From a virus, in IMG/VR virus record IMGVR_UViG_3300031466_000074: 64,000 bases of DNA. One strand, written 5' to 3'. Position numbers: made by a program. Shown here piece by piece: positions 36,001-39,000 of this stretch (positions within the stretch are counted from its first letter, which is position 1; every line of letters starts with the position of its first letter).

Positions 36001-39000
36001 GCTGACCCGCAGTACCCCAAGTCCAGACCGTATAAGCCGCACTATCAATTTGTACCTTTCCTTCAGTCACTACCAAATTCACAAAATCTTGCGGTGAAAG
36101 TTTAAGACCACAAGAGGAAAAGGAGCGAATAAGATCATAGTCATACTTATTTACAAGAGTCGTCAAACGATGCAAGTCATGAGCAAGAAGAAAACGCGAC
36201 AACAGAACTACACTCCTTATGATAAAAGTCTCGAATGATGCAACTTAAAAGAAATCGAACTTACTGGAACACCAGTACCAACAAACGAATGCGCTTTTCC
36301 ATTCTGCCAAATATGCACAAACAGACGACCTTCCGCCTTATACAACCAAACAAAGGCGTAGTAATGAGGGGTGAAAGGTAAACTACCCTTGAGCGCTAAT
36401 TCATACCGACCATGATTGTATAACCAAAACTCACACCCCTTTATTGTAGAGGGTTGAGTGTGACTTTCAGAGGGAGTAAACCTACCTTTATACCCGCTCA
36501 TCAAGGTGAAAACTGGAGTGCGCTCGGCTTCACAAAATAAATAAGCTGTCATCCCTTTCGCTTTCAAACGGTAAAGAAGTAAGCTTCGATACTCATCAAT
36601 TTCCCGAGAAACAGGCTTACGTTGAAAGAGATGCAAAACACCTTGCACTCGAAAAGGTACGTTATATATGCAAACTTCCTCTCCGCATTCGAGCTTAAAA
36701 AACGGAGGAAGATTGGATGTATATAGCATCCTATTCTTCGCTTTCGTAGGCATAAAACCACCCCAAATGGCGTGAAATTAGCACTCCGCGAATGCAGAGT
36801 GCTTGTGACAAAACATATCACTTACTCTGAACAAAAGCGCGAAACCTAGATGCATCATTTACATAGAGTAGCTTGAGCGCGGGTTTCTTTCGAGTGGGCG
36901 GCTGAAACAACTCCACAAATCGATAACCGATAGACTGATGAAACGTGATTGAAGGATAATTCTTATTATCTATCGAAAGGAAAACCGGACAGTCCGGCGG
37001 TAAGTGCTGGAACAAATATTCATTCAGCGCCCGCCCATACCCCTTACGTCTTTCAATCGGGTCAACACAAATCTGAAAAAGATAGTAGAAGTTACCCCGA
37101 TGGTGACGAGAAACCAAAAGTCGCAGATCATGAAGAAGGGGAATCTCTCGTTTGAAAGACCCCTTCAAGAATGCTACAACCTTCCCTTGCGACTCTAAAA
37201 CCAGAAACAGCTTCGAGCGCTTAATAGATTGGCGGTACATCTTAAAAGTATCCGTCGTAGAAATGATACCCCTCGCTTGCAAGTCCTGCACAATACGAAA
37301 GATCTCAGGGGTGTCCGAAACCCGCGCTCGACGGATAACAAAATCCTCTATGAGGTCTCCCTCCTTCTGGGTCGATCCCATTGATGTTTCCGCTTGGACT
37401 GATGCTTCCAAGAGCGGTAATAATTACGTCCTCCTGCCAGACGATACGAAGGAAGCGCCCGCGCCTTTCTCGAAGGGCGAATATACGGCGCATGTTCCTC
37501 ATCCAAAGACAGTTTCCGCTCCTGAAAAGTTTGCGGATTCTTACAAACCGCTCCCTTCTTCCAACGACCCGTATGAGGTACCGGAGTTTGCCGGAAAATC
37601 ACCGTGATCCTCGGATGCTTCCCCTTCCGCCGAAGCGCCCAATCAGGTTGCGACTTCAATGACGGATAGGAAAAATTTGCGATTTCATACCAAAAGTCAC
37701 GCATGTCCATGACCCGCCCAAGCGGATCGAAGAAAATCAAATTACGCACCCCGGACGACTCCAGACCCGGTACGGTATAGTACGCCTCGCGAGGTGAGAA
37801 AGCCAAGAGTTCCCCCAACAAGCGATTCGCTTTCTCATACGGCAACAGATGCGGATTCGAGGGGATATTAATGTCGCTACCCCACCACGAGTACCAACGA
37901 TTATAACGAGCGCAGTACGCGATGACCTCCTCGAAGGAGTGGAAGACAGTGACCGTGTTCTTCAACGTATTCCACATGCGGTATCTCATGATCCTAGTCC
38001 TCCTTGAGAGATCTTCCAAACTGGTACTTAGTATAAAAAACCAGTCCCAAGAAAACAAGCAAGTACCCTAAAAAGAAATGAAGGTTTGAAGTATAAAAAA
38101 TACCGAGTAGACTGACTACCGATCTACCCGGTCAAGTAAAAGGAGGAATACCAGTTTTTATACTACAAAACTAGTCCAATAACGTCAATAATATATCCGT
38201 ATGTTTATCCAAAAGTCAAAAGTAAAAAAAAGCACCGGGCGATACGAGTACCCGGTCGAACAGAGAAAAGGAGATTGGATTAAACGAGACAAGCGAAGGA
38301 GAGATCCGAAAGGGGCGAGTAGTCCTTTCAAAACCCCACCCGAGTGTAACCGAAGGAGGATGGCGTACCTCTCCCGCGAGAGGAACAGGGCTTATCGGGA
38401 TCACCTCACGAGTAAAATCCCAAAGTCTCCCCATTTTTCAACGCCACTGCGTTACACGCTTACTTACCCTCCCAAGCGTTCAGCCAAGTCGGATGAGGTT
38501 TTGAAAGGACTACCACAACCACCTTTCGCTATCTATCTTACACCCCTAGTCAAAAAGCGTCAACAAAGAAGTCAAAAGAAATTTACCAGAATCTCCTGAA
38601 TTACTGCGAACTCAACGCCTCCGGCGAAATCGAGTCCTCATCCGTGAAAGACACAACCTCCCCATCCTCAACAGAAATCAGCGAATCGAACAAAGCATCA
38701 AACAAGGGTTGCAAATCGCTGGCTTCTCGAACCGAATACCGACGAGAACTCATACCCCGACGCATTTTAACCAGCGTCGCCTTCGTCTTGATAGCGCTTT
38801 GCAAGAAGGTTGAATGCCGAGTTACCAAATCGTTTAACGGTTCACAAAGACGAATGAAGTTTTGCACATTTCTGCGCTTTTTACGCGCTTCCGACAGACG
38901 GAAAACCACATCTTCAAGCGTATATTGATCCAAATCCAGAAGCTCCAACGCATGAAGATAGTCCTGCGTTTCCCTGTCATAGAGTGACAAGGCTTTATTC

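What the first reader, a model, noticed from the sequence alone, without database searches (positions are those of the whole stretch)
38224..38563. Unannotated ~300-nt ornate ncRNA gene with its own promoter, terminator and pseudoknot
Seen (minus strand): promoter TTGACG-17-TAAGAT. A 25-bp stem (17 perfect bp, then G-U pairs that only work on this strand) joins 38489-38513 to 38319-38343. Inside are hairpin ACGCTT/AAGCGT, nested stems GTGTAAC/GTTACAC and TGGCGT/ACGCCA, and hairpins GGGAT/ATCCC and CCTCTC/GAGAGG. Loop GGAGGGT can pair with ATCCTCC (pseudoknot). The pyrimidine-rich 3' tail has anti-SD-like CTCCTT motifs, then a terminator with U8. It lacks RNase P, SRP, tmRNA and T-box hallmarks. 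Inference: a new large structured RNA class.
Basis: partly seen in the sequence, partly recalled or inferred. Interest (0 to 1): 0.8.

Follow-up and report, generated by a model that had tools for sequence, protein, structure and literature searches.

The report
Orphan non-coding RNA gene in jumbo phage
The described stretch is probably a stand-alone, roughly 306-base non-coding RNA gene of an uncultured ~273-kb phage, but it occurs in only one phage species, so the claim of a new structured RNA class cannot be tested by comparison.

Summary
On the minus strand, a promoter (38563-38535) of a class enriched in this genome is followed by an RNA of about 306 nt (38529-38224). Its ends pair into a 36-bp helix around a 145-nt branched core. 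A 50-nt unstructured CU-rich tail with two CUCCUU motifs and a GC hairpin with U8 follow. No Rfam family matches. Both overlapping ORFs are frame-shifted among strains 96-98% identical, so it is non-coding. The window is part of a ~273-kb phage known only from metagenomes. I found the RNA in 17 other contigs of that one species (8 haplotypes) and nowhere else. A distant relative has the two flanking genes adjacent without it. The 36-bp helix never varies. The core fold is only marginally better than shuffles (z -2.05), and one polymorphism breaks a proposed pair. The proposed pseudoknot can equally form as a nested helix. A 65-nt unit follows with a paralogous promoter, a CUCCUUUU stretch and a terminator with the same 5' arm. 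One natural variant deletes that unit by recombination between the two terminators and keeps the large RNA. Best reading: a moron-like RNA gene, likely a base-pairing RNA whose anti-Shine-Dalgarno-like tail is the active part. A new RNA class is not shown.

The parts
38535..38563 (-). Promoter P1: TTGACG, 17-nt spacer containing GACTAG, then TAAGAT
   Evidence: The pattern TTGAC-N16-18-TANNAT occurs 10 times in the window against 1.68 expected (0 of 100 shuffles reach 10), and 9 of the 10 are on the minus strand. One spacer substitution is seen among 8 haplotypes.
38224..38529 (-). Predicted RNA-1 transcript, about 306 nt. The start is inferred 6-7 nt after the -10 box; the end is the U-tract.
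   Evidence: MFE -124 kcal/mol, z -4.85. No Rfam match.
38489..38528 (-). 5' strand of the terminal helix (RNA positions 2-8, 10-12 and 16-41)
   Evidence: Invariant in all haplotypes.
38307..38343 (-). 3' strand of the terminal helix (RNA positions 187-212, 214-216 and 217-223)
   Evidence: Invariant in all haplotypes.
38344..38488 (-). 145-nt branched core. It holds helices UGGCGU/ACGCCA, GGGAU/AUCCC and CCUCUC/GAGAGG, plus the GGGAGG:CCUCCU pairing. Around that pairing there are two alternative arrangements.
   Evidence: z -2.05 on its own. All sequence variation of the structured part lies here.
38258..38306 (-). Single-stranded CU-rich tail (C 15, U 23, G 6, A 5 of 49) with CUCCUU at 38301-38296 and 38273-38268
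   Evidence: Predicted to be unpaired. CTCCTT occurs 21 times on the minus strand in 64 kb, and 4 of these lie within 38090-38530.
38224..38257 (-). Terminator T1: GACCGGG, a 9-11 nt loop, CCCGGU, then U8 (U8-U11 in other haplotypes)
38160..38188 (-). Promoter P2, a paralogue of P1 (TTGACG, GACTAG in the spacer, TAGTAT)
   Evidence: Compared directly with P1.
38092..38154 (-). Unit 2: a mini RNA of about 65 nt with UUCCUCCUUUU, then terminator T2. T2 has the same GACCGGGUA 5' arm, an 11-bp stem at 38132-38102 and a U-tract.
   Evidence: Deleted in haplotypes L109 and L110 by recombination between the two GACCGGGTA repeats.

Best explanation
This is an independent, moron-like RNA gene of an uncultured ~273-kb phage. 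A host-type (sigma-70/sigA-like) promoter would start a non-coding RNA of about 306 nt. Its 5' end is locked into a 36-bp helix that closes a 145-nt branched domain. A 50-nt unstructured pyrimidine-rich tail with two CUCCUU motifs follows, then an intrinsic terminator.

I think the working part is the tail. CUCCUU is the complement of the AAGGAG ribosome-binding sites used by this phage. The RNA would therefore pair with Shine-Dalgarno regions of host or phage mRNAs and lower their translation.

The helix-closed 5' domain would protect the RNA from 5' decay, bind a protein, or serve as a site for a double-strand-specific RNase. The neighbouring 65-nt unit is a stripped-down paralogue: the same promoter type, the same CUCCUUUU stretch and the same terminator arm.

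Shown: the sequence anatomy, the non-coding status, the promoter class, the tandem paralogy and the restriction to one phage species. Inferred: transcription, the ends of the RNA, and the whole mode of action.

My odds: real expressed non-coding RNA about 0.75; anti-Shine-Dalgarno base-pairing as its mechanism about 0.35-0.4.
For: - Promoter: it belongs to a class that is six-fold enriched and strand-biased in this genome. The same class precedes the tRNA array and a stand-alone tRNA-like gene.
- Terminator: a GC hairpin with U8-U11 in every haplotype.
- Non-coding: both overlapping ORFs change frame or vanish among strains 96-98% identical, through +1 and +2 indels in a hairpin loop and in the U-tract.
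- Fold: z -4.85, and the longest inverted repeat in 64 kb. The tail is predicted to be single-stranded.
- Motif cluster: the densest cluster of anti-Shine-Dalgarno-like hexamers on the transcribed strand of the window is here, 4 of 21 CTCCTT within 440 nt.
- Unit 2 shares the promoter motifs, CUCCUUUU and GACCGGGUA.
- A natural 128-nt deletion removes unit 2 but keeps RNA-1 joined to a terminator.
- Variability in the RNA is like that of the flanking coding DNA: 8 variable columns per 250 nt, against 24 in the next 250 nt of spacer.
Against: - There are no expression data.
- There is no homologue outside one species, so no covariation test is possible.
- No specific target was found. The tail pairs with start regions in the window no better than shuffled tails do.
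- CUCCUU would match nearly every ribosome-binding site, so specificity is unexplained.
- A 220-nt structured domain is not needed for a seed-type small RNA.
- The similarity between unit 2 and the 3' module of RNA-1 rests on an 8-mer and a 9-mer only.
Confidence: 0.4

Rival explanations
1. One reading: the function lies in the folded core. The RNA would be a founding member of a new class of large structured RNAs, for example a protein-binding scaffold, decoy or ribozyme, with a pseudoknot. The tail would be incidental.
For: - A 36-bp closing helix plus 4-5 inner helices, with complementary GGGAGGGU and AUCCUCCU.
- No Rfam match.
- Indels fall in a hairpin loop, and two substitutions turn Watson-Crick pairs into G.U.
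- The genome is unusually rich in structured RNAs. It has a tmRNA, more than 20 tRNAs, and RNA units next to a TROVE-like gene.
Against: - The core alone gives z -2.05.
- Two competing folds have equal energy.
- U113C breaks a pair, and U107C breaks a terminal pair of the minimum-energy fold.
- No relatives exist, so there is no covariation and no 'class'.
- A distant relative lacks the RNA at the same site.
Confidence: 0.2
2. The 222-bp piece bounded by the long inverted repeat is a selfish or neutral insertion, such as a miniature inverted-repeat element or a palindromic insertion. It landed in a small-RNA gene of the unit-2 type, and the core has no function of its own.
For: - RNA-1 looks like unit 2 (promoter, CU-rich stretch, terminator) with about 220 nt inserted right after the start site.
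- The terminal inverted repeats of 25-36 bp and the total size fit such elements.
- The region is absent from the distant relative.
Against: - No second copy was found in about 95 kb of this genome.
- No copy was found in representative genomes of 185,579 species by exact 23-mer, in 800 Bacilli and Clostridia genomes or in IMG/VR.
- No target-site duplication is visible next to the repeat.
- The helix is invariant in 8 haplotypes.
Confidence: 0.15
3. It is a cis-acting leader. The structured RNA would modify RNA polymerase or switch the terminators (processive antitermination or attenuation) to control the downstream 213-aa gene and the acetyltransferase operon.
For: A promoter-proximal structured RNA is followed by two terminators ahead of an operon on the same strand.
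Against: - I saw no alternative pairing between the core and the terminator arms (by inspection).
- A 50-nt unstructured spacer and a second promoter lie between them.
- The downstream gene has candidate -10-like TATACT boxes of its own at 38090-38099 and 38030-38039.
- The relative L002 expresses the homologous gene from a simple promoter with a 110-nt leader.
Confidence: 0.1
4. It is a Y-RNA-like partner of the phage's TROVE-like (DUF2828 plus vWA) protein.
For: - The 5' and 3' ends form a long stem.
- The 5' end reads AGCGAAAG, which matches 5 of the 6 fixed bases of the bacterial Y RNA motif GNCGAAN0-1G (PMC4201824).
- The same genome encodes a DUF2828/vWA protein.
Against: - It is about three times longer than Y RNAs (80-130 nt).
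- It has no tRNA-like arms.
- It lies about 50 kb from the TROVE-like gene, whereas Y RNAs lie within 4 kb (PMC4201824).
- The three RNA units beside that gene share UCCAGCAA, which is absent here.
Confidence: 0.07
5. It encodes a small protein, either the 72-aa sense ORF or the 132-aa antisense ORF that some gene callers report.
For: Gene callers annotated a 132-134-aa antisense ORF in some contigs.
Against: - Frames differ between haplotypes, and one haplotype has no ORF of 50 aa or more.
- The sense AUG has no ribosome-binding site.
- The antisense strand is purine-rich and T-poor, so open frames arise by composition.
Confidence: 0.02

Closest known systems
Gram-positive base-pairing small RNAs with pyrimidine-rich seeds that pair with Shine-Dalgarno regions (RsaE/RoxS type; from my own knowledge)
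   Same: Own promoter, intrinsic terminator, and an unstructured C/U-rich stretch complementary to ribosome-binding sites. The 65-nt unit 2 has exactly this minimal layout.
   Different: No sequence or Rfam relation. The seed is CUCCUU rather than a C-run. RNA-1 carries a 220-nt helix-closed domain that such RNAs lack. No target was identified.
Phage morons and stable phage RNAs of unknown role, such as the T4 stable RNAs C and D beside its tRNA genes (from my own knowledge)
   Same: A self-contained promoter-gene-terminator unit sits between two phage genes and is absent from a relative. It is a phage-borne stable-looking RNA in a tRNA-rich genome.
   Different: The product is a large structured RNA rather than a protein. 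There is no sequence relation.
Bacterial Y RNAs (YrlA, Yrn1; PMC4201824)
   Same: A long stem made by the two ends. A near match to the 5' motif GNCGAAN0-1G. A TROVE-like gene in the same genome.
   Different: The length, the absence of a tRNA-like domain, the distance from the TROVE-like gene, and no Rfam hit.
Miniature inverted-repeat elements such as the Correia elements of Neisseria (from my own knowledge)
   Same: A piece of about 200 bp bounded by inverted repeats of about 25 bp or more. It folds into a long hairpin when transcribed.
   Different: It is single-copy wherever I could look, and there is no target duplication.
3' end of 16S rRNA (from my own knowledge of the sequence GGAUCACCUCCUU)
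   Same: A helix is followed directly by GGAUCUCUCCUU, an anti-Shine-Dalgarno-like tail.
   Different: This is a resemblance over about 12 nt only. The core CCUCC is changed to CUCUCC. I recalled the rRNA sequence from memory and did not test it against the host rRNA, which is unknown.

Membership tests
Any Rfam 15 family | Covariance-model score at or above the gathering threshold | tested here: not met
   The best overlapping hit is a microRNA model at 19 bits against a threshold of 80 (E 0.87). There is no hit to 6S, SRP, RNase P, tmRNA, T-box, Y RNA, phi29 pRNA, or the OLE, ROOL, GOLLD or raiA models.
Bacterial Y RNA (YrlA type) | Length of 80-130 nt | tested here: not met
   The predicted length is about 306 nt, or about 222 nt without the tail. 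The criterion comes from PMC4201824.
Bacterial Y RNA (YrlA type) | Long stem formed by the 5' and 3' ends | tested here: met
   A 36-bp helix.
Bacterial Y RNA (YrlA type) | Motif GNCGAAN0-1G near the 5' end | tested here: inconclusive
   The 5' end reads AGCGAAAG, which matches 5 of the 6 fixed bases. I estimate a chance match at about 5% over the first 10 positions.
Bacterial Y RNA (YrlA type) | tRNA-like domain with T and D arms | tested here: not met
   No tRNA-type hit from Rfam at E up to 10 or from ARAGORN.
Bacterial Y RNA (YrlA type) | Encoded within about 4 kb of the Ro60 orthologue, on the same strand | tested here: not met
   The DUF2828/vWA gene lies about 50 kb away on the same strand (L017:2974-4473).
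Trans-acting base-pairing small RNA | Own promoter and intrinsic terminator | tested here: met
   (sequence evidence only).
Trans-acting base-pairing small RNA | Accessible single-stranded seed | tested here: met
   The tail is predicted to be unpaired. The motif cluster is significant.
Trans-acting base-pairing small RNA | Specific complementarity to a target mRNA | tested here: inconclusive
   Duplex energies with 241 start regions in the window are no better than for shuffled tails. The host transcriptome is unknown.
Trans-acting base-pairing small RNA | Detected transcript | not testable with these tools
   No expression data are available.
Miniature inverted-repeat element | Terminal inverted repeats and a size of 100-400 bp | tested here: met
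Miniature inverted-repeat element | Multiple copies in the genome or the host | tested here: not met
   The host genome itself is unknown, so this is not final.
Miniature inverted-repeat element | Target-site duplication | tested here: not met
   No direct repeat flanks the arms.
Riboswitch or attenuator leader | Terminator arm able to pair alternatively with the sensor domain, with the regulated ORF directly downstream in the same transcript | tested here: not met
   I found no complement of the terminator arms in the core (by inspection). A second promoter-terminator unit lies before the next gene.
Protein-coding gene | Reading frame conserved among strains | tested here: not met

The most novel reading that the evidence does not exclude
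The RNA is a functional mimic of the 3' end of 16S rRNA. A long helix is followed by GGAUCUCUCCUU, and a second, internal CCUCC is held in an SD:anti-SD-like helix. A jumbo phage would use it to capture Shine-Dalgarno sequences or a factor that binds the rRNA 3' end, and so redirect translation initiation. It would then be the first member of a new class of large phage regulatory RNAs.
Probability: 0.1. Interest if true: 0.8.

Novelty: new variant of a known kind. Interest (0 to 1): 0.45.

Why it matters
Jumbo phages are known to carry tRNAs and sometimes a tmRNA, but few regulatory RNAs of their own have been described. This genome appears to devote several stand-alone transcription units to structured RNAs. 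If this RNA is expressed and acts through anti-Shine-Dalgarno pairing, it would be a phage tool for global control of translation. If the helix-closed core is the active part, it would be a new structured RNA. For now it is a well-formed, single-lineage candidate. Its value is as a concrete target for RNA-seq or a Northern blot once the phage or its samples are in hand.

Tried and rejected
1. Rfam at gathering thresholds and at E up to 10: nothing relevant.

2. blastn of the region and of 20 kb around it against GenBank phages: no match.

3. Synteny route.
- The upstream 380-aa and downstream 213-aa proteins have relatives only in the same species plus one distant contig, L002. L002 lacks the RNA.
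- tblastn against GenBank phages gave MT839702, which has a tRNA upstream instead.
- It also gave a Bastillevirinae phage with a 28%-identical domain and no spacer.

4. Pattern scans.
- IMG/VR 17-mer: one chance hit with no matching second arm.
- JGI metagenome 20-mer: 0 hits.
- Two-part core pattern: 12 hits, all unrelated.
- Representative genomes of 185,579 species, 23-mer: 0 hits.

5. BLAST in 401 Bacilli and 399 Clostridia genomes: only matches of 20-36 nt at chance level.

6. Host assignment by thymidylate synthase: uninformative, 50-56% identity to many phyla. The clamp loader has no relative above 33% identity among cultured phages.

7. Paralogues within about 95 kb of the genome: none.

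8. Target prediction for the tail: not better than shuffled tails. A whole-window scan timed out.

9. Literature look-up of the sample accessions: nothing.

10. The whole-genome tools hold neither this genome nor its contigs.

11. I did not build a covariance model. The full RNA exceeds the size the tool will calibrate, the core structure is ambiguous, and no collection of related phages could be searched with it.

12. Strand-specific G.U pairs as evidence for RNA-level selection: I discounted this. The minus strand is G+T-rich, which by itself favours G.U on that strand. My rough estimate of the chance probability for 4 of 4 is about 0.16.
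Full report
**Where the window comes from**

No whole genome is held for the window. Proteins flanking the finding occur on metagenomic contigs of up to 273,538 nt from JGI, ENA and Logan assemblies. The window carries:
- 11 tRNA genes;
- ribonucleotide reductase, a clamp loader and thymidylate synthase;
- mostly proteins without any family.

No cultured phage is close. The clamp loader is at most 33% identical to any, and 20 kb around the finding gives no megablast match. 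This is an uncultured jumbo phage of about 273 kb.

Its promoters, strong AAGGAG ribosome-binding sites and domains such as Asp23, YitT and Cu_amine_oxidN1 in neighbouring loci suggest a host in the Bacillota. So does a distant hit to Bacillus-type Herelleviridae. The host is not established; the thymidylate synthase was uninformative.

**Check of the observation**

- The promoter TTGACG-17-TAAGAT is at 38563-38535.
- The inverted repeat 38319-38343 / 38489-38513 is the longest in the window within 400 nt.
- Folding extends it to a 36-bp helix (7 + 3 + 26 bp). It begins one or two bases after the predicted start site and ends just before the motif GGAUCUCUCCUU.
- The minus strand folds to -124 kcal/mol (z -4.85, 0 of 100 shuffles). 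The plus strand gives -97.5 (z -3.84).
- The tail of about 50 nt is predicted to be unpaired.
- It is followed by a GC hairpin and U8, which is U8-U11 in other strains.

Three corrections are needed.
2. The GGGAGG:CCUCCU pairing can form as a nested helix with the same total energy as the hairpin-plus-pseudoknot model.
3. The 145-nt core on its own is only modestly better than shuffles (z -2.05).

**It is non-coding**

Seventeen other contigs of the same species carry the region. They comprise 8 haplotypes at 96-100% identity. Indels of +1 and +2 in the loop of the CCUCUC hairpin, and in the U-tract, shift both overlapping ORFs. The 72-aa sense ORF changes sequence after residue 22 or disappears. 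The 132-aa antisense ORF, which some gene callers report, appears in different frames. One haplotype has no ORF of 50 aa or more at all.

**The promoter is credible**

The pattern TTGAC-N16-18-TANNAT occurs 10 times in the window against 1.68 expected. Nine of these are on the coding strand, in intergenic positions. They include the sites ahead of the tRNA array and ahead of a stand-alone tRNA-like gene. The promoter of this RNA and the next one downstream share further motifs: TTGACG, GACTAG in the spacer, and GTA before the -10 box.

**A tandem mini-unit and a natural deletion**

Directly after the terminator comes a second promoter (38188-38160). It is followed by a stretch of about 65 nt containing UUCCUCCUUUU and by a terminator whose 5' arm, GACCGGGUA, is identical to that of the first terminator. 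This unit looks like the large RNA without its helix-closed domain.

Haplotypes L109 and L110 have a 128-nt deletion exactly between the two GACCGGGTA repeats. The deletion removes the first terminator, the second promoter and the mini-unit's CU-rich stretch. It leaves the large RNA joined to the second terminator. In nature, then, the large RNA is the part that is kept.

The hexamer CTCCTT is the complement of the phage's AAGGAG ribosome-binding site. It occurs 21 times on the minus strand in 64 kb, and four of these lie in this 440-nt stretch. This is the densest such cluster in the window.

**Variation and constraint**

The 36-bp helix is invariant in all haplotypes. The changes elsewhere are as follows.
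- Core, in loops: U64C and U115G.
- Core, pair-preserving: C72U (G-C to G.U), and A160G (U-A to U.G) together with loop indels.
- Core, pair-breaking: U113C breaks the loop-proximal pair of GGGAU/AUCCC. U107C breaks a terminal pair of the minimum-energy fold.
- Tail: two substitutions.

This is compatible with a structure but does not demonstrate one. The RNA has 8 variable columns per 250 nt, similar to flanking coding DNA. The next 250 nt of spacer has 24, although that figure is inflated by homopolymer indels. With nine variable sites, an invariant helix has a chance probability of about 0.09 by my estimate. The G.U pairs that exist only on the minus strand are also weak evidence, because that strand is G+T-rich throughout the window.

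**Search for relatives**

I found none.
- Rfam, GenBank phages, IMG/VR, JGI metagenome contigs, representative genomes of 185,579 species and 800 sampled Bacilli and Clostridia genomes gave nothing beyond chance.
- About 95 kb of the same genome holds no paralogue.
- Among about 15 billion proteins, the two flanking proteins have only one relative outside the species. That contig, L002, has both homologues (55% and 41% identity) 200 nt apart, with a plain promoter and leader between them.

The RNA unit is therefore a lineage-specific insertion, or a loss in the other lineage. This is the pattern of a phage moron. It also means that no covariation analysis is possible, and that 'class' is not yet a meaningful word here.

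**The Y RNA lead**

Earlier notes of this scan pointed to a TROVE-like gene elsewhere in the genome. I walked to it. It is a DUF2828 plus vWA protein, preceded by three RNA units that share UCCAGCAA.

The RNA under study lacks that motif, lies about 50 kb away, is about three times too long for a Y RNA and has no tRNA-like arms. Its only resemblances are the end-to-end stem and a 5-of-6 match to the bacterial motif GNCGAAN0-1G (PMC4201824). I keep this as a minor rival.

**How it most likely works**

The features shared by the large RNA and the mini-unit are the promoter type, the CUCCUU(UU) stretch and the terminator. This, together with the significant motif cluster, makes the pyrimidine-rich tail the best candidate for the active part. 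It would pair with Shine-Dalgarno regions.

The 5' domain begins flush with the transcript start. It would stabilise the RNA, and its 36-bp duplex is long enough to be a substrate for a double-strand-specific RNase or a binding site for a protein.

None of this is shown. A search for specific targets in the window was no better than shuffled controls.

Four rivals remain open:
- a neutral inverted-repeat insertion;
- a cis-acting leader;
- a Y-RNA-like partner.

**Verdict**

This is a real and well-formed sequence feature, very probably a non-coding RNA gene, and it was previously noted by this scan on the same stretch only. It is not a member of any known family. It is also not yet a demonstrable new class, because it exists in a single phage species and its core fold lacks independent support. 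Interest is moderate.

Noticed in passing
window 38092-38188 (minus): A second stand-alone mini RNA unit. It has promoter TTGACG-17-TAGTAT, about 65 nt containing UUCCUCCUUUU, and an 11-bp terminator with the same GACCGGGUA arm as the first terminator. A weak Rfam hit to a Bacillus small RNA (17 bits) reflects mainly the terminator.
   Followed up: partly
L109:660-1215 and L110:660-1215 (equivalent to window 38129-38256): A natural 128-nt deletion between the two GACCGGGTA repeats. It removes terminator 1, promoter 2 and the seed of unit 2, and fuses the large RNA to terminator 2.
   Followed up: yes
window, 10 sites listed: A promoter class TTGAC-N16-18-TANNAT, often with GACT or TACT in the spacer and GT before the -10 box. 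There are 10 copies against 1.7 expected, 9 of them on the minus strand. Copies lie ahead of the tRNA array (54671-54699) and the tRNA-like gene (62387-62415).
   Followed up: partly
window 38030-38039, 38090-38099 (minus) and 38155-38164 (plus): Three exact copies of TTTTTATACT lie within 135 nt, and only one more occurs in the rest of the window. They may be -10-like boxes of a second promoter type for the downstream gene. L002 also has TATACT before its leader.
   Followed up: no
L017:2420-2960 and L017:2974-4473: Three RNA units, each closed by a stem and each carrying UCCAGCAA, lie directly upstream of a 499-aa DUF2828 plus vWA (TROVE-like) gene. None has an Rfam hit. The third unit holds an insert of about 220 nt.
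   Followed up: partly
L017:18855-19370: A phage-borne tmRNA (Rfam 71 bits) that is unusually long at 516 nt. It sits in an RNA-only stretch of about 1 kb.
   Followed up: no
L013:7581-8613: A second tRNA array of 7 genes lies just beyond the window's high end. Together with the 11 tRNAs in the window, that makes at least 18 tRNAs in about 75 kb.
   Followed up: no
L098:140-230: In an unrelated faecal phage fragment (MT839702), the homologue of the downstream 213-aa gene is preceded by a tRNA-like sequence. RNA genes therefore recur next to this gene family.
   Followed up: no
window 38601-39743 (minus): Only the C-terminal third of the 380-aa upstream protein (residues about 217-350) is conserved. 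It matches L002 at 55% identity, Bacillus-type Herelleviridae at 28%, and PHROG 2717. The N-terminal part is lineage-specific.
   Followed up: partly
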